Made by a program: the position numbers. From Escherichia phage ETEC-TG, in sequence record OR786310.1: 64,000 nucleotides of DNA; one strand, written 5' to 3'. This document shows positions 1 to 12,000 of this stretch, one piece after another. Position 1 is the stretch's first letter. Every line of letters begins with the position of its first letter.

Positions 1-3000
1 TTAAAGGTTATATCAAATTCCCACTATCCATTATCTCAAAAATCCTTCAAATTATTTAAACTTTTTAAGAATTTACAAAAGTGAAAGTTGAAAACCAAAA
101 TTTAAAGTTTAGGAAAATTATCTTAAAATGTTAGATACAAAACAAAACTCAAAAGTCAAGGAAAATTTTAAAAATTTTGCGCGCCCACAGTATTTAAAGT
201 TTTTTTGCTTTTACAAAAATGAAAGTACAAAAGCAAAATTTAAAGTTTACAAAAATTTTTATGCAGGTGAGAATGAGAAGAGTTCTCATATGGAAATGCA
301 AATGATAATGATTCGCATTTAAGTTTATAAATGAGATTGATTCTTATTTAATAAGGTAAATGATAATCATTCTCATTTAGAGAATGACGCGCAGGGGCGG
401 TGTTTGTCTCGCGCTCCCGTGTCCCCTCGCCATGTAATAAGAATAACAGATCCAGCCAGGAAAGCAAGCGATTATTTTATCTTTACATTTCTTTACAAAT
501 ATATAGCGCCCAGCCTACCGGCGATCAACCTTCCAACCAGCGCCCTGGTTGGCGCGGTAGAAAGATGATAGCCGTTTCCTTGATATACAGCAAGCAAAAA
601 GAAAATAAAAAAGATTGAAAAAGTGGTTGACGTTCCTCACCTGGTAGCGTAGTATTCATCTTGTCGAGGGGGGCGCGGCACAACGACAATAAACAACAGG
701 AGGGGCGCAATGCAGGACGGGCAAAGGTGAGGATCTCCATAATCCACCGTCCACCAACAAAAAACATCATTCATCACCTGGAGTTAAAATCATGGCAACA
801 TTGCACATTGTGGCGAAAGCAGGACAAATCAGCGTCGTGGTAAACGGTTTTACTGAGTTCAGTCATCCCCAGGATGATCATGAAACGGTTTTATCTTTCA
901 TTGATTCCCTGTTAGAAATGGGAGTCATTACAGAAGACCAGCACGCTACAAAATGCAAGCGCGTTAATCAAATTGCAGGGATAGAATAAAAAGTATTGAC
1001 AACAAACAACAACCTGATAAGATGTATCACATAGGGCGGGAAGTGGTTTCCCGCTCGTAACAGAAGAGAGATTATCATCATGGCATCATATAGCGCAACA
1101 ATGATCGTAGCTGGCACAACTGGTAAACCTATGAGCGGTGGCGGATCTTTCGCTAATATCAATATTGACGGGCGTTTATCCCTGGACGCAGCGATTGCCA
1201 TTGCACGGGAAACATTTAAGAAAGAATGTAATTTCAACAAGCAAGATTATCTCGGTTTCGCTATTGAAAAAACCGCGCGCTTTGTTGATTATAAAAGCCC
1301 GAAAATGGTTGACACTACACTAAAAGCGCAAGATGTAGCGTTTTTGCTTTAAGGCTTGACATTAACGAATAATTTGTTAATATGTTACATAAAGCGGGAA
1401 TAGTTCCCGCTATTTGTAAGGTGGTAGAATGTTTTACATCAAATTAAAAGGTCACGTGATCGCGTTCAAAGATAACGCTTTTTACAGATTAGCAAAATAT
1501 GCGTTAATACATCCCCACTATGTTTATATAAGGGGGCGTGATGAAATAAATATCTTTGATCAAACAACATGCGAGAACATCGAGATCCGCAAGGTTGGCG
1601 TACGTGATTATCGTACATCTTTCTACCCTTGCAAGGATTCAGCAAGTCTTTTTAAGGTATGCCAATTGTTGAAAAAAGGTGGTTAATATGGGCCGCGAAT
1701 ATGTGATCCAGTCTTGGGTAAAACATGAAGCAGATGATCCGCGCATCATTCCCGATCATCTTATCGATGAATCCACGGGATATAGCGGGGAGCAAATAGG
1801 TAACAGATTAGCACGTAGTAACGGCAACGTAAAAGCGCGTTATGTGCGCCCTGGCTGGCTGGCAAATGGTAATGCTGATTTATCCAGTGCGGAAGATGCG
1901 AGCGACGGCGCGAAAGATAATCCTTTGTACAAAGTTGATCCGGCTTTTCGTGTCCTGGATGAATACCCCAGCAAGATAGCGGCGCTCGATCAAGCCCTGG
2001 AAAGTAAGCGCATCACCTGGACCGCTTACAACATGGCAAAAAACGTACTTGATGGTAAATTGATTCAAGCTGAAAGAAAATTAGCCAAAATTGCAGCCAT
2101 AGCCCAGGAGGAAGACGAGGAGACAACGGAAGAGGAAGAGTACGAAGAGATCCCGCCGTTGTTGTGTGTTGATGCTTTTCCTGATTATCAGCCGACAGAG
2201 GAAGAAAAAAGGATCGCACTAGAAAACTTTGAAAATAGTCTTTGACATATCGCCGCCACTGGCATAATATTTACCACGTAGGGCGGCAATGGTGCCGCTC
2301 ATAGTAAAATTATGCAAGAGGTTTGCAATGATTAATAAAGAAAATAGCTTGACGGTTGGAACGATTAACGCTATCATTTTCGCCGTTCCATTTTGGGTTG
2401 TAGTAGCGGCTATTATTTTCTAAAAAATATTCTTGACAACGTTTTTTAATCTGATAAGATGTATCACATAGGGCGGCGGAATACTTCCCCGCCAAAACAA
2501 AAAAGGGTAACACAATGAGCAAGCAAATCAGTACTATCATGTTTAATCTGGTATCTTTCCGCGATGATATGAAAAATTTACCACGTGAAACGGTTGATAT
2601 TCATGTTTCAGCTTATCGCGCCCTTATTGACATGTTACCGCTAAAACGTGATCAACATGCCGCTAATATGATGTTTAATGCTATGCTTAAAAAGATGATT
2701 CAAACGGATCTCACCCTGGCGTATGAGTATCAAGGGCGCTTATATGCAACTTACAACAAGGCGGTACCTGGTCTGGGAAGTACCGAAGAGTTGCACGGCT
2801 TAAACTTGGATCAAAACACTTGGGATAGTATGCGCCGCGTTATGGTATGGGCCGAAAGCGGTAAAATTTACGAATAAAAACGGTTGACACTGTTTAAACT
2901 TCTGGTATAGTTTACCACATAAGGCGGGAAGTGGTTTCCCGCCAACAATGAAAAAGGTTATCATCATGGCTATTAATATTAATGTTTCCGCTTATGCTAC

Positions 3001-9000: not shown

Positions 9001-12000
9001 CCAACTTTTAGGAATGGTTGCAGCAAATGCAGAGCTTGCTTACTATGTTGAAAATTTTGATGAAGCTGTAATCTTTACAAAATAATCCTTGATCTAATCT
9101 CTTAAATAACTTATATTTAATGCGTAGGGCGGCAATGGTGCCGCCGATAATGAGGAAAGTAAAATGGAAACTATCGCTATTGTTACCGTAGAAAAACTGG
9201 TTGTTGGTGATGTATTCGCGTTAATGGTGCCTAACAGCAGCAAGCTGGGCGCTTATGAAGTAATGGATCATAAAAATGAATCATTTGGCGACGGTTGCAC
9301 AATGGCGGTAAAATCTTTAAAAGATGGAATCATCCGCCAGGCTAACTGGCACAAAGGGAATCAAGTCGGTTTAATATCAGCTAATTTCTTGCCAGAAGAG
9401 CAAACATTAGATCAACTATCAGGCGGTAAGACGTTAGCCGAACTACTGGAAACAGCGATCTAATCGACAAGGGGGCGGCAACGCCCCCCATTAAACGCAA
9501 TAGGAAGAGGATAGACACATGAAAAAGATGATCGCAGTAGTTGCCCTGGTTGTTGGTATTAACGCGCCTGTAATGGCGAAAGAGTTGCCAGAATCCATCA
9601 CGTTAACCGATATTAACGCCGTGAACCGGATCGGTGTTAATTATCGCCTATGCCTTGCCGCTAAAACTTTCCAGGACGGCACAACAGAGTACTACGGATT
9701 CGAGGGTGTCCGGTGCGGTGAGCTTGCACGCGACCTTAAGGAAGATCCAGACCTTGAGGCCATACCGATGACCGTAAACGGTAAAGCCCAGGTAAACCGC
9801 TAACCATGAGAAAGGTAATCATCACAATGGGGATCGTAGTAGCAACGCTGGCGCTTATTCCCTTCCTGGTTGAATATGTGCTGATTAATGTTGTCCTGGT
9901 AGTCAGTGACCTATTGGAAACGGTTGGCAACTGGTTTTAAAAATAAATAAACAGGACTTGTTTTTGTCCTGTTTTTTGTTATACTTATTGAACGGGCGGC
10001 ACTTGGGAGCAGGTGAAGATAATCACCGGAAGATTCCGCTATATATCGATAGCTAATACCTATCAAACAACAAAACATCAAAGAGATAAACTATCAAATC
10101 TTTACAATCCTACATATTGACCGATAAATCACAACAGTTTAATATTGTTTTCAGAGGTTAAAATATTCCCCAAACGAAAACAGGAAAAAGAAAATGAAAG
10201 AAGTCATGATCCTCAAAAAATCACCTATTTTACGTGGCGGTTTTATCGCTTACTCTGATGATCTGTTAATTGCAACAGTTGCAAAAATACTAAAATCAGA
10301 AGATGACAGTAAAAACGGCGTTTATCGTATCTGTTTCACCCGTGGAAAATTACAAGGTAAGATCGCTTATGCCTTTGACTTACAAGATGTAAACGATAAA
10401 ATATGCGCTGTTATTGATTATGCAAAATAGTTAATTTTCTTATTGACACCGGATCACGCTTGCATTATTATTTATCACGTAGGGCGAGCAATACAGCAAG
10501 CCCACAAAGAGGAAAATAAAATGAGCAAATCAGCAATTAAAGCACTTGAAAAAGCACAAGAAGTGATCGCAACGTCCACCACTGGCGCAAAGGTTAATCT
10601 CGTTGGTTATCTGACAGATGAAACTATCCGTAAAAATTGGCGTAATGCTGATTTACTGGCTTGCTTATTGATTAATAGTGTCGCTAATGCTTTCCAGTGT
10701 GAAACAGCCGAGAGCCTGGAGGAAAACTTGTTTGATAATATGGATCAAGCCATTGAAACCTATATACAATCAAACCTGGATAGCTGGAACAGTAAAACAT
10801 GGCCCGACAATTTACGCGATACAACTGATCAACTGATCCGCCTTGCTGTGATGGTTGAACGCGATAACGTTTACAACAGCACAAAGTAAGATTATACAAG
10901 GGCGCACCAAGCGCCCTTTAACGTAAAGAAATGTAAATAATGCGCTATCCCCTATTGACAGGGGATCGGCGTTATATTATATTTAACTCACTGGCAGCAA
11001 ACAACGAAACGAAACAAAGGATAACACTATGAACATTAAATCAAATAATCCAGCTTACTCCTTCGATAACGCTTTTTGTCACGGTAGCGCCGCCAAAGGC
11101 TTCGAAATCGATGGTAAATTGGTTATCGTGAACGTTGACGGGGAAGAGGTTGCAGTGTATCCGGTAAACGATGTTAAAAGCCGTTTACAATGCCGTATGG
11201 ATGTTACCGCATATCAGCTTGATCCGATCCGTGTAGTTGCCCTGGTATTAGAGGAAGAGATCAAAGCAATGCATCACAGTAATAAGTTTATTGGTGACGC
11301 GCAGGATAATATGAACGTTTGCCGCCATAAAGTTAATGAAGCACTGAAAGAATGCGGTTTTAAGGATCTGATGATCAAACGTGATGAAAAATTCCGCTTT
11401 CGTAATGACCTGGCAAACCGGATCTACTCAATCTATGAAGCGTTATAATTGACAACAAAACAAGGGCGCACCAAGCGCCCTTTCTTTTTGCCCGAACAAT
11501 GTTGATAGCTTTCGCCTATGAAAAACCGACACAGAACAAAATTGAATAAATCGCGGTATCGAGCTAATCAACCATTAAACGAATAACCATACACCCCAGG
11601 GCAACAGGCTGTTAGAGAGCTATTTATAGCGGTTAAAATCGATCAACAACCAACAACAAACCATCAAAAACATCCTTTTACCTCCTTTCTAGTGCAATGA
11701 TAACCATTATCATCTATACATGATTATATATGCAATGTAAGCGCATAATTATAATGTTGATAACAGTTCGCAACAACTAACCAACAAACAACATAAAACA
11801 ATAAGCAAACTAATCATAATCAAAGGAATAATAGCAAGATGATTGATAACAACAAACAATCAAACCATAATGAATACTAAGCAAGATAACGATAACACGA
11901 CAAAACAACCAACTAACGAACAATAACAAACGAAACCATTAAAATAATAACTATTAGCAAAATAGTGTCTGAATGAAATCATTACAAAACGAATCATTCC

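What the first reader, a model, noticed from the sequence alone, without database searches (positions are those of the whole stretch)
996..10471. Array of about 20 promoter plus stem-loop cassettes, one per small early gene
Across 1-10.5 kb nearly every small ORF is preceded by the same module: TTGACA, a 16-17 nt spacer, a TAAGAT/TAAACT/TAATAT -10, about 10 nt, then a GC hairpin (GGGCGGCAATGGTGCCGC in at least 7 copies; GGGCGGGAAGTGGTTTCCCGCC in at least 3; GGGCGGGAATAGTTCCCGC and others), then SD and ATG. This matches the promoter-early-stem-loop (PeSL) cassettes described for some T4-type phages as recombination-mobile regulatory units. ORFs 4374 and 4616 share their first 16 nt (MITFA) and diverge afterwards, consistent with cassette-mediated shuffling.
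Basis: partly seen in the sequence, partly recalled or inferred. Interest (0 to 1): 0.6.

Follow-up and report, generated by a model that had tools for sequence, protein, structure and literature searches.

The report
Early promoter plus leader-hairpin cassette array
A phAPEC8-like E. coli phage puts the same ~80-base unit (a strong host-type promoter followed by a small GC hairpin at the predicted start of the transcript) in front of 21 of about 32 small early genes, and these repeated units are where related phages have gained, lost and swapped single genes.

Summary
There are 21 promoter-plus-hairpin cassettes, plus one variant at 4545, all on the + strand between 996 and 10,521. They serve about two thirds of the roughly 32 small genes there, and none occurs in the other 53 kb.

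The window is a Phapecoctavirus (phAPEC8-like), not a T4-type phage.

The PeSL reading is partly right. Relatives show chimeric cassettes and single-gene insertions or deletions joined inside the repeats, as in the PeSL model.

The anatomy differs from RB49 PeSLs:
- RB49 hairpins lie inside the promoter. Here the hairpin starts 10-12 nt after the -10 hexamer, which puts it 0-4 nt from the predicted 5' end of the cassette's own mRNA.
- It has an A-rich tail with no T-run, so it is not a canonical terminator.
- Its structure is supported by covariation.

The same architecture recurs in phi92, rV5-like phages, Certrevirus CR3 and the jumbo Asteriusvirus phages.

The phAPEC8 record annotated this 20-mer in 2012 as a "PHIRE promoter". 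I found no description of it as a leader hairpin.

The most likely function is an RNA-level protecting or insulating hairpin, combined with DNA-level homology for modular shuffling. I class it as a new variant of a known kind, of moderate interest.

The parts
996..1079 (+). Cassette 1: -35 at 996-1001, -10 at 1018-1023, hairpin at 1034-1056, SD, then ATG at 1080
1356..1428 (+). Cassette 2: -10 at 1378-1383, hairpin AGCGGGAATAGTTCCCGCT at 1393-1411, ATG at 1429
2242..2327 (+). Cassette 3: -10 at 2265-2270, hairpin GGGCGGCAATGGTGCCGCTC at 2281-2300, ATG at 2328
2433..2514 (+). Cassette 4: -10 at 2455-2460, hairpin at 2472-2493, ATG at 2515
2884..2965 (+). Cassette 5: -10 at 2906-2911, hairpin at 2923-2943, ATG at 2966. 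The orthologous promoter in vB_EcoM-P3322 carries a different hairpin type.
3338..3420 (+). Cassette 6: -10 at 3360-3365, hairpin GAGAGCGGGAACACTTCCCGCCTC at 3376-3399, ATG at 3421. The same hairpin occurs in jumbo phage BF17.
3670..3750 (+). Cassette 7: -10 at 3692-3697, hairpin at 3709-3729, ATG at 3751
3988..4068 (+). Cassette 8: -10 at 4010-4015, hairpin at 4026-4045 (pairing extends to the predicted +1), ATG at 4069
4288..4373 (+). Cassette 9: -35 is TTGCAA, -10 at 4310-4315, hairpin at 4327-4350, ATG at 4374
4545..4615 (+). Variant cassette: TTGACT, 16-nt spacer, TACAAT. The hairpin TATAGCGCC/GGCGCTATA at 4557-4582 brackets the -10, as in RB49-style PeSLs. ATG at 4616.
4841..4915 (+). 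Cassette 11: -10 at 4863-4868, hairpin at 4880-4898, ATG at 4916
5276..5348 (+). Cassette 12: -10 at 5298-5303, hairpin at 5312-5329, ATG at 5349
5743..5821 (+). Cassette 13: -10 at 5765-5770, hairpin GGCGGGGAATAGTTCCCCACC at 5782-5802, ATG at 5822. PBECO4-like jumbo phages match this at 92%.
6025..6099 (+). Cassette 14: -35 is TTGATC, -10 at 6047-6052, hairpin at 6062-6082, ATG at 6100
6403..6482 (+). Cassette 15: -35 is TTGCAA, -10 at 6425-6430, weakest hairpin at 6442-6464 (-7.8 kcal/mol), ATG at 6483
6896..6972 (+). Cassette 16: -10 at 6918-6923, hairpin at 6934-6953 (extended stem 6927-6959), ATG at 6973
7259..7342 (+). Cassette 17: -10 at 7282-7287, hairpin at 7298-7321, ATG at 7343
7832..7909 (+). 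Cassette 18: -10 at 7854-7859, hairpin at 7871-7891, ATG at 7910. Left repeat of an insertion/deletion relative to phage anhysbys.
8015..8094 (+). Cassette 19: -10 at 8037-8042, hairpin with internal loop at 8054-8075, ATG at 8095. Right repeat of the anhysbys insertion/deletion.
8815..8893 (+). Cassette 20: -10 at 8837-8842, hairpin at 8853-8872, ATG at 8894. Left parent of the chimeric cassette in phAPEC8.
9089..9163 (+). Cassette 21: -35 is TTGATC, -10 at 9112-9117, hairpin at 9128-9145, ATG at 9164. Right parent of the chimeric cassette in phAPEC8.
10443..10520 (+). Cassette 22: -10 at 10466-10471, hairpin with internal loop at 10482-10503, ATG at 10521
7519..7545 (+). Promoterless intercistronic hairpin GAGGCGGGGGAGTATTCCCCGCCGTC before ATG 7561. 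It is a recurrent breakpoint among relatives.
9470..9490 (+). Promoterless intercistronic hairpin GGGGGCGGCAACGCCCCCC before ATG 9519. It is a breakpoint among relatives and the start of a block shared with rV5-like phages.
5502..5530 (+). Canonical intrinsic terminator (AAGGGCGCACCAAGCGCCCTT followed by TCTTTTT). It is one of three copies of the same hairpin and serves as a contrast to the cassette hairpins.
9949..9982 (+). Canonical intrinsic terminator that closes the second block of the array
10897..10919 (+). Second copy of the GGGCGCACCAAGCGCCC hairpin, followed here by TTTAACG rather than a T-run and not flagged by the terminator scan. It is the left repeat of a deletion seen in anhysbys and TSP7_1.
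11462..11490 (+). Third copy of the GGGCGCACCAAGCGCCC terminator hairpin; right repeat of the same deletion
4374..4389 (+). First 16 nt of ORF 4374, identical to the first 16 nt of ORF 4616 (4616-4631). The two proteins are otherwise unrelated.

Best explanation
The region is an array of self-contained early-expression cassettes in a Phapecoctavirus.

**Anatomy of one cassette (shown directly by the sequence).**
- An A-rich tract that contains the upstream gene's stop codon and resembles an UP element.
- A near-consensus sigma70 promoter (TTGACA, 16-17 nt spacer, TAnnnT, often with an extended -10 TG), readable by unmodified host RNA polymerase.
- A conserved purine about 8 nt after the -10, in the motif (A/G)TAGGGCGG. 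I infer this is the transcription start.
- A 7-10 bp GC hairpin lying 0-4 nt from that predicted 5' end.
- A 15-25 nt A-rich, mostly unpaired leader carrying the Shine-Dalgarno sequence, then ATG.

**How it works on RNA (inferred).** The hairpin acts on the sense-strand RNA. It gives each short early mRNA a structured 5' end. It gives each cistron of a read-through transcript a structured boundary. This would limit 5'-end-dependent decay and 3'-exonuclease decay, and would keep the ribosome-binding site free whatever ORF follows. It does not act as a terminator. A terminator at +25 would abort the cassette's own transcript, and the U-tract is absent.

**How it works on DNA (shown by comparison).** The 20-60 bp identities among cassettes, and among the three copies of one terminator hairpin, serve as crossover sites. 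Through them single genes are inserted, deleted, replaced and reordered. This has happened within the genus and between phage families that infect the same hosts.
For: **Cassettes are real and confined.** 21 plus 1 copies, all on the + strand, 15 under the strict scan against 0.15 expected. Model hits fall only within 1029-8079 of 64 kb.

**Fixed geometry.** The hairpin starts 9-12 nt after the -10. The base 8 nt after the -10 is a purine in 17 of 21 cassettes. With that start the median unpaired 5' end is 3 nt (range 0-4), leaders are 38-51 nt, and the SD region has a mean unpaired probability of 0.67.

**Not terminators.**
- The terminator scan flags none of the cassette hairpins on the + strand, but it does flag three canonical terminators in the region.
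- The 8 nt after 62 distinct hairpins are 57% A and 16% T.

**Structure is conserved, not just sequence.**
- 62 distinct hairpins show 98.4% paired cells.
- 6 of 8 pairs carry changes on both sides.
- 0 of 500 shuffles reach the observed values, and slid controls give 35-81% paired.
- The arms are asymmetric: G-C 295 against C-G 76, A-U 102 against U-A 11, G-U 22 against U-G 0. This fits selection on the sense RNA.

**The hairpin is not needed for promoter activity as such.** + strand consensus promoters at 10955, 22732, 23647 and 27680 lack it.

**Same architecture elsewhere.** phi92 has 11 copies, PBECO4 has 12, BF17 has 4, rV5-like BP9 has 4, and CR3 has 1-2. It is absent from RB49 and from 5,426 E. 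coli genomes.

**Shuffling.**
- The phAPEC8 cassette equals the promoter of cassette 8815 plus the tail of cassette 9089, joined within the shared 22 nt GTAGGGCGGCAATGGTGCCGC. ORF 8894-9085 is absent there.
- anhysbys lacks ORF 7910-8014 between cassettes 7832 and 8015.
- anhysbys and TSP7_1 lack 10920-11460, which lies between two identical terminator hairpins.
- Almost all breakpoints against 7 relatives lie in cassettes, promoterless hairpins or terminators.
- Blocks shared with phi92, rV5-like and Asteriusvirus phages begin or end in cassettes.
- Gene order differs in phi92.

**Precedents.** T4 has stable intergenic hairpins, and the T4 gene 32 5' leader stabilises its mRNA (cited in PMC8948821).
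Against: - No transcript 5' ends or half-lives are available for this phage group. The start site is predicted only from sigma70 spacing rules.
- With 3-4 unpaired 5' nucleotides the hairpin may not block RppH or the RNase E 5' sensor. RNase E can also scan past simple orthogonal stem-loops (PMC9943677). The stabiliser role is therefore uncertain.
- Two hairpins of the same kind lack a promoter (7519, 9470). A primary 5' end cannot be the whole story.
- Breakpoints in intergenic DNA are also what selection for intact genes would leave behind. Only the chimeric or overlapping junctions (3 events) speak directly for homology-driven exchange.
- One indel (at 2962-2973) is joined at the start codon rather than in the promoter or hairpin. 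Another (6773-6775) lies at a gene junction without a cassette.
- The covariation alignment was fitted to the model.
Confidence: 0.6

Rival explanations
1. These are PeSLs in the strict sense. The hairpins would be terminators or attenuators that stop transcription arriving from the upstream cassette, so that each small gene is expressed only from its own promoter.
For: - The composite promoter plus stem-loop layout and the link with shuffling match PMC2839356.
- In RB49 a G-run/C-run stem-loop without an obvious U-tract reduced reporter expression as strongly as rrnB T1.
- There are no canonical terminators between cassettes within each block.
- Two promoterless hairpins sit at gene junctions.
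Against: - The hairpin lies downstream of the cassette's own predicted start. An efficient terminator there would abort its own mRNA at about +25.
- The tails are 57% A and 16% T.
- None of the hairpins passes the terminator scan on the + strand. The phage does use textbook terminators at 5502, 9949 and 11462.
- RB49 hairpins occupy a different position, inside the promoter.
Confidence: 0.13
2. The hairpin is a recognition site for a trans-acting factor, which could be a phage early or middle protein or a host RNA-binding protein. The factor would control the whole early gene set together, for example by timed shut-off, targeted cleavage, translational control or modification of the elongating polymerase.
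For: - The apical sequence is more conserved than pairing alone requires (GGAA-TAG/TGG-TTCC, CAATGGTG), and so is the 5' flank (A/G)TAGGGCGG. This holds across Phapecoctavirus, phi92, rV5-like and Asteriusvirus.
- The position relative to the promoter is fixed.
- The hairpin is present only on the small-gene array and not on other sigma70 promoters of the same phage.
Against: - The stems, and several loops, differ widely: GGGGCGACAAGCGCCCC, GGGCCAAAAGGCCC and hairpins with internal loops. Orthologous promoters carry different hairpin types. This argues against one specific binding site.
- Shared sequence can be explained by recent exchange of cassettes.
- No Rfam family matches.
- No candidate factor has been identified.
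Confidence: 0.15
3. The element works at the DNA level only. The GC palindromes would be recombinogenic or selfish repeats (replication slippage, template switching, cruciforms) that spread next to promoters and have no role in the RNA.
For: - Crossovers map inside the hairpin repeat.
- Hairpin types are swapped between orthologous promoters.
- The repeated terminator hairpin also mediates a deletion.
Against: - The orientation and distance from the -10 are strictly constant, and all copies are on the sense strand.
- The arms are asymmetric, with G-U pairs only in the sense orientation (22 against 0).
- Pairing is kept through double-sided changes across four phage groups.
- A purely DNA-level palindrome would not need a fixed place in the transcript.
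Confidence: 0.08
4. The 20-mer GTAGGGCGGCAATGGTGCCG is a phage-specific promoter, as annotated ("putative promoter determined with PHIRE") in the phAPEC8 reference record.
For: The annotation in NC_020079 sits exactly on the hairpin at four sites. The motif is the most over-represented 20-mer of the region.
Against: - It always lies 10 nt downstream of a near-consensus sigma70 promoter.
- It is a GC-rich self-complementary sequence whose pairing, not its sequence, is conserved.
- PHIRE reports repeated 20-mers regardless of function (my own knowledge of the program).
- The rV5 paper reports only sigma70-like promoters spread across the genome, plus a T4-late-like motif upstream of late genes. 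The CB7 paper reports no RNA-polymerase gene and only sigma70-like promoters.
Confidence: 0.03

Closest known systems
PeSL (promoter-early stem-loop) cassettes of T4-type phages RB49/phi1, T4/PST and KVP40/nt-1 (Arbiol et al. 2010, PMC2839356; Comeau et al. 2014, PMC4122927)
   Same: - A sigma70-like early promoter with an AT-rich upstream tract that holds the previous stop codon, an adjacent G-rich/C-rich stem-loop, then SD and ATG.
- Dense in a block of small genes of unknown function.
- Chimeric cassettes and single-gene insertions or deletions between close relatives, with crossovers inside the repeat.
   Different: - The host genome is a Phapecoctavirus, not T4-type.
- There is no sequence similarity to the RB49 motifs.
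- RB49 stem-loops lie between -35 and -10 or around the -10, so they are not in the cassette's own transcript. Here 21 of 22 lie after the predicted start, in the 5' leader. Only cassette 4545 has the RB49 layout.
- The terminator role claimed for PeSL hairpins is unlikely here.
5'-terminal stabilising stem-loops of E. coli and T4 mRNAs (ompA 5' UTR hairpin; T4 gene 32 leader; T4 intergenic CUUCGG hairpins)
   Same: - A short stable hairpin at or near the 5' end, or at cistron boundaries.
- The stem sequence is free to vary.
- It is followed by an open ribosome-binding site.
- The T4 precedent is cited in PMC8948821. The ompA work is from my own knowledge (Emory, Bouvet and Belasco 1992).
   Different: - Here it is a repeated module on about 20 promoters rather than a feature of one gene.
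- The loops are not UUCG-type.
- The predicted 5' overhang of 0-4 nt is borderline for protection.
- RNase E can bypass orthogonal stem-loops (PMC9943677).
- No half-life data exist.
"Putative promoter determined with PHIRE" features in the phAPEC8 reference genome (NC_020079)
   Same: The annotated 20-mers are exactly the type-A hairpin and a variant of it. The repeat itself was therefore noticed in 2012.
   Different: The annotation calls it a promoter. The evidence here shows a transcribed hairpin downstream of a host-type promoter.
Sigma70 plus UP-element promoter clusters reported in the small-ORF region of rV5 and Certrevirus phages (PMC3606486, PMC7344957)
   Same: The same promoter class, concentrated in the same kind of region of related phages.
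   Different: Those papers do not mention a downstream hairpin or a role in recombination.

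Membership tests
PeSL (Arbiol et al. 2010) | Composite intergenic motif: a sigma70-like early promoter plus an adjacent stable stem-loop, with SD and ATG at the 3' end | tested here: met
   21 plus 1 cassettes
PeSL (Arbiol et al. 2010) | AT-rich tract upstream of -35 that contains the stop codon of the upstream gene | tested here: met
   The 12 nt before -35 read GAATAAAAAGTA, TAAAAAATATTC, TTAAAAAATAAT and similar in nearly all cassettes.
PeSL (Arbiol et al. 2010) | Stem-loop placed within or around the promoter: between -35 and -10, overlapping a box, upstream of -35, or just before the transcription start | tested here: not met
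   In 21 of 22 cassettes the stem starts 9-12 nt after the -10, which is predicted +1 to +5, and ends near +25. Only cassette 4545 matches the RB49 layout. Caveat: start sites are predicted, not mapped.
PeSL (Arbiol et al. 2010) | Stem-loop acts as a transcription terminator or attenuator | not testable with these tools
   The sequence argues against it: no T-run (57% A, 16% T after the stem), none flagged on the + strand, and the hairpin lies inside its own transcription unit.
PeSL (Arbiol et al. 2010) | Found in hyperplastic regions of T4-type genomes, next to ORFans | tested here: not met
   The region does look hyperplastic: small genes, with 19 of 20 tested matching PHROGs families of unknown function. 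But the genome is Phapecoctavirus, Stephanstirmvirinae.
PeSL (Arbiol et al. 2010) | Insertions, deletions and replacements between close relatives are bounded by the motifs, leaving chimeric motifs | tested here: met
   Chimeric cassette in phAPEC8 (8815/9089), the anhysbys deletion (7832/8015), and breakpoints against 7 relatives.
PeSL (Arbiol et al. 2010) | Formation of encapsidated mini-circles by recombination between flanking motifs | not testable with these tools
   This needs inverse PCR on infected cells or virions.
PeSL (Arbiol et al. 2010) | Sequence relationship to the RB49/phi1 G(n)-loop-C(n) motifs | tested here: not met
   RB49 intergenic motifs were read directly. The composite scan finds no cassette of this layout in 49 kb of RB49. 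The covariance model gives only two weak hits there.
Intrinsic (Rho-independent) terminator | GC-rich hairpin followed directly by a U-tract | tested here: not met
   The window has true examples at 5502, 9949 and 11462 for contrast.
5'-terminal mRNA stabiliser hairpin (ompA type) | Hairpin at or within a few nucleotides of the 5' terminus of the transcript | tested here: inconclusive
   The predicted overhang is 0-4 nt, median 3, if the start is the conserved purine 8 nt after the -10. The start is not mapped.
5'-terminal mRNA stabiliser hairpin (ompA type) | The effect depends on structure, not on stem sequence | tested here: met
   62 distinct stems keep their pairing, 6 of 8 pairs have double-sided changes, and 0 of 500 shuffles match. 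This shows conservation of structure, not an effect on stability.
5'-terminal mRNA stabiliser hairpin (ompA type) | Prolongs mRNA half-life in an RNase E / RppH-dependent way | not testable with these tools
   Needs rifampicin chase experiments. Caveat from PMC9943677.
Known RNA families (Rfam 15), including nut/put-type antiterminator RNAs | Match to a curated covariance model | tested here: not met
   No hit at E-value up to 1 in 1-12000 on either strand.

The most novel reading that the evidence does not exclude
The hairpin, together with its conserved flank (A/G)UAGGGCGG and apical GGAA-N3-UUCC / CAAUGGUG motif, could be a shared RNA tag. It would mark the early, horizontally exchanged small genes of several unrelated large coliphages (Stephanstirmvirinae, Vequintavirinae, Asteriusvirus). 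A common trans-acting factor, host or phage, would read it to switch the whole early set on or off together. Under this reading, any gene that recombines into a cassette would automatically join that regulon.
Probability: 0.15. Interest if true: 0.7.

Novelty: new variant of a known kind. Interest (0 to 1): 0.45.

Why it matters
- It extends the PeSL idea, in which repeated regulatory cassettes act as the joints of modular gene shuffling, beyond T4-type phages to at least three other groups of large virulent enterobacterial phages, including jumbo phages.
- Gene-sized modules with these boundaries are shared between those groups.
- It corrects an annotation in the phAPEC8 reference record, where the hairpin is called a phage promoter.
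- It defines a compact natural part (UP element, consensus promoter, 5' hairpin, open ribosome-binding site) that appears to work in front of arbitrary ORFs. That is useful for phage engineering, and for predicting which genes of therapeutic phAPEC8-like phages are early and exchangeable.
- The role of the hairpin is a clear question that can be tested experimentally.

Tried and rejected
- **Rfam.** Scan of 1-12000 at E-value up to 1 gave nothing.
- **MAFFT alignments of the hairpins (A1-A3).** They were not in structural register, because even- and odd-length loops shift the arms. I replaced them with a covariance model built from odd-loop hairpins and with my own centre-based counts.
- **Terminator reading.** Rejected on tail composition and position.
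- **rrn/lambda boxA-like reading of the GCUCACAAC that follows some hairpins.** Rejected by inspection of the cassette sequences. It occurs only in types whose 3' arm ends in GCTC, is absent from the GGGAA/TTCCC types, and lacks the U-run of boxA.
- **Chi-like reading of the AATGGTG loop.** Only 5 of 8 bases match GCTGGTGG, so I rejected it.
- **Shared N-termini as a general signature of shuffling.** Only the 4374/4616 pair stands out. MAINI (2966/3751) and the MK/MS starts are within ordinary start-codon context.
- **T5-like phages.** A 27-nt match (TATTATTTATCACGTAGGGCGGCAATG) lies in the terminal repeat of Epseptimavirus genomes, but no clear hairpin follows. I did not count it as a member.
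- **E. coli genomes.** No copy of a cassette.
- **Literature.** No paper in the library quotes the motif. No transcriptome of these genera was found. The phAPEC8 genome announcement is not held.

Full report
**Identity of the window.**
- The first 12 kb match about 280 phage records. The best are Escherichia phages of the genus Phapecoctavirus (Stephanstirmvirinae), about 150 kb long. vB_EcoM-P3322 matches at 96.7% over 87% of the query, and anhysbys at 97.7% over 1-7838.
- So this is a phAPEC8-like myovirus, not a T4-type phage.
- The genes of the region are annotated "hypothetical" in every record read. Nineteen of 20 tested ORFs match PHROGs families of unknown function, so they are real, conserved phage genes.

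**The observation.**
- Direct reading, a regex scan and the table from upstream flank to ATG show 21 copies of one module on the + strand: A-rich tract with the upstream stop codon / TTGACA (or TTGCAA, TTGATC) / 16-18 nt, often with TG before the -10 / TAnnnT / 8-11 nt ending in (A/G)TA / GC hairpin / A-rich leader / SD / ATG.
- The distance from -35 to ATG is 73-86 nt.
- A 22nd unit at 4545 has its hairpin around the -10.
- A strict composite scan finds 15 copies, against 0.15 in Markov shuffles of 11 kb.
- A covariance model of the hairpin, run unfiltered on both strands of all 64 kb, hits only 1029-8079.
- 22 of about 32 genes carry a cassette, not "nearly every" one.
- The shared 16-nt start of ORFs 4374 and 4616 is exact and unique among 561 ORF pairs.

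**Anatomy of the hairpin.**
- Each hairpin starts 9-12 nt after the -10 hexamer. Folding energies are -11 to -21 kcal/mol, with one weak copy at 6403.
- By the usual sigma70 spacing the transcript should start 7-8 nt after the -10. That base is a purine in 17 of 21 cassettes, and it varies A/G within the otherwise conserved (A/G)TAGGGCGG.
- With that start the hairpin lies 0-4 nt (median 3) from the 5' end, leaders are 38-51 nt, and the SD region stays mostly unpaired.
- The 8 nt after the stem are 57% A and 16% T.
- The terminator scan flags none of the cassette hairpins on the + strand. It does flag three textbook terminators: 5502 and 11462, which carry the same hairpin GGGCGCACCAAGCGCCC, and 9949. 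A third copy of that hairpin at 10897 is followed by TTTAACG rather than a T-run and is not flagged.
- Other consensus promoters on the + strand further along (10955, 22732, 23647, 27680) have no hairpin. The hairpin therefore belongs to the small-gene array, not to promoters in general.

**Is the structure selected?**
- Across the window, 8 Phapecoctavirus relatives, phi92, an rV5-like phage, CR3 and two Asteriusvirus jumbo phages, I collected 62 distinct hairpins at the same offset.
- Stems differ widely (GGCGGGAA/TTCCCGCC, GGGCGGC/GCCGCTC, GGGGAGAA/TTCTCCCC, GGTGGGGAA/TTCCCCACT, GGGGCAAG/TTTGCCCC and others), yet pairing is kept.
- On a model-based alignment 98.4% of cells pair and 6 of 8 pairs show changes on both sides. 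No shuffle out of 500 reaches this, and slid controls give 35-81%. The alignment was fitted to the model, so this leans toward the structure.
- The arms are asymmetric: the 5' arm is purine-rich, and G-U pairs occur 22 times against 0 U-G. This favours a structure in the sense-strand RNA over a symmetric DNA operator.
- No Rfam family matches.

**Comparison with PeSLs.**
- I read both PeSL papers and the RB49 hyperplastic region itself.
- RB49 motifs look like TTGACA-GGGGGTCACCGATCCCC-TATAAT, or have a stem bracketing TAAGAT. The stem-loop is inside the promoter and is not part of the cassette's own transcript. The authors interpret it as a terminator or attenuator of incoming transcription.
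- The composite scan used here finds no such downstream-hairpin cassette in 49 kb of RB49.
- The window's cassettes share the composite design, the AT-rich stop-codon tract and the genomic setting. They differ in hairpin position, sequence and probable role. Only the 4545 unit has the RB49 layout.

**Shuffling.**
- Local BLAST of 1-12500 against seven relatives puts almost every homology breakpoint in a cassette, a promoterless hairpin (7519-7545, 9470-9490) or a terminator.
- Three events are resolved to the base:
  - phAPEC8 has one cassette that equals cassette 8815 up to the hairpin and cassette 9089 from the hairpin on. The join is within the shared 22 nt, and ORF 8894-9085 is missing.
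  - anhysbys has one cassette where the window has 7832 and 8015 flanking ORF 7910-8014.
  - anhysbys and TSP7_1 lack 10920-11460, which lies between two identical terminator hairpins.
- An orthologous promoter (2884) carries a different hairpin type in P3322. That indel is joined at the start codon.
- Blocks shared at 70-92% identity with phi92, rV5-like and Asteriusvirus phages begin or end in cassettes. Gene order differs in phi92.
- Intergenic breakpoints are also what selection for intact genes would leave. The chimeric junctions are therefore the direct evidence, and the rest is supporting.

**Distribution and prior knowledge.**
- The same promoter-then-hairpin layout occurs 11 times in 9 kb of phi92, 12 times in 9 kb of PBECO4, and 4 times each in BF17 and an rV5-like phage. 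Some hairpins are nearly identical to those in the window.
- It is absent from 5,426 complete E. coli genomes.
- The phAPEC8 reference record annotates the sigma70 part as a "host dependent promoter (MEME)" and the hairpin 20-mer as a "putative promoter determined with PHIRE". The repeat was seen, but read differently.
- The rV5 and CB7 genome papers report sigma70 promoters, with UP elements in CB7, clustered in CB7 in the small-ORF region. They report no hairpin.
- No paper in the library quotes the motif.

**Mechanism.**
- Shown: the cassette anatomy, its restriction to the array, conservation of the structure, the absence of terminator features, and repeat-mediated insertions and deletions.
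- Inferred: early timing, from host-type promoters and position; the start site; and the RNA-level role.
- I favour a protecting or insulating 5' and intercistronic hairpin. Precedents are the T4 gene 32 leader and T4 intergenic hairpins, and ompA (my own knowledge).
- A predicted 3-4 nt overhang, together with the ability of RNase E to step over orthogonal stem-loops, makes this uncertain.
- Rivals, in order: a trans-factor recognition tag, a PeSL-type attenuator, a DNA-only recombinogenic palindrome, and a phage-specific promoter.

**Verdict.** This is a real and well-defined feature, and a new anatomical variant of the PeSL idea in non-T4 phages. It reaches across phage families. Interest is moderate (0.45).

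Noticed in passing
window 272-379: Four 19-nt palindromes of the form AATGAnAAnnnTTCTCATT at 29-bp spacing, in the non-coding stretch just upstream of the early array. They weakly resemble the E. coli Fur box: one copy matches with 3 mismatches, and another site at 12633-12651 (- strand) also matches. The anhysbys record marks a repeat_region at the matching place. They could be operators or iterons.
   Followed up: partly
window 48-257: A 72-nt direct repeat (48-119 and 186-257, 82% identical) that contains three copies of a 29-nt AT-rich unit (AAAACCAAAATTTAAAGTTTAGGAAAATT). No ORF is evident there.
   Followed up: no
window 540-780: A segment that is variable or replaced among close relatives. 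Homology breaks at 540-549 and resumes at 771-779 in several genomes. Some relatives annotate a minus-strand ORF here.
   Followed up: no
window 5502-5522, 10897-10919, 11462-11482: Three copies of one hairpin, GGGCGCACCAAGCGCCC. The copies at 5502 and 11462 are followed by a T-run and score as terminators; the copy at 10897 is not flagged. Two relatives lack the gene between the second and third copies, with the junction inside the repeat. Repeated terminator hairpins therefore also act as crossover sites.
   Followed up: yes
window 7519-7545 and 9470-9490: GC hairpins of the cassette kind that have no promoter. They sit between genes and are recurrent breakpoints among relatives.
   Followed up: partly
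L010 (Salmonella phage Seafire, Epseptimavirus) 1500-1527; about 200 T5-like records: A 27-nt match to the -10 plus start plus first hairpin arm of a cassette (TATTATTTATCACGTAGGGCGGCAATG), inside the terminal repeat (pre-early region) of T5-like phages. No clear hairpin follows it.
   Followed up: partly
window 3421-3660; also 8033-8423 and 9470-9941: Single small genes shared at 82-92% nucleotide identity with rV5-like phages and with about 350-kb Asteriusvirus jumbo phages. This indicates recent gene-sized exchange between unrelated coliphages.
   Followed up: partly
window 51264 and 32579 (- strand): Two further consensus promoters followed by a hairpin on the minus strand. The stems are unrelated (TGGGAGGAGGTGAGTCCTCCCA and AAAGCCTCCTGTTTCAGGGGGCTTT). 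The second has a trailing T and may be a terminator.
   Followed up: no
one search hit list: Records named Campylobacter phage (23 records) and Acinetobacter phage vB_AbaM_ABPW7 are 96-97% identical to this E. coli Phapecoctavirus region. Their host labels may be wrong.
   Followed up: no
window 2884-2965 compared with L002 4340-4430: The orthologous promoter carries a GGGAA/TTCCC-type hairpin in the window but a GGCAATGGTGCC-type hairpin in vB_EcoM-P3322. The promoter and hairpin halves of a cassette therefore reassort.
   Followed up: partly
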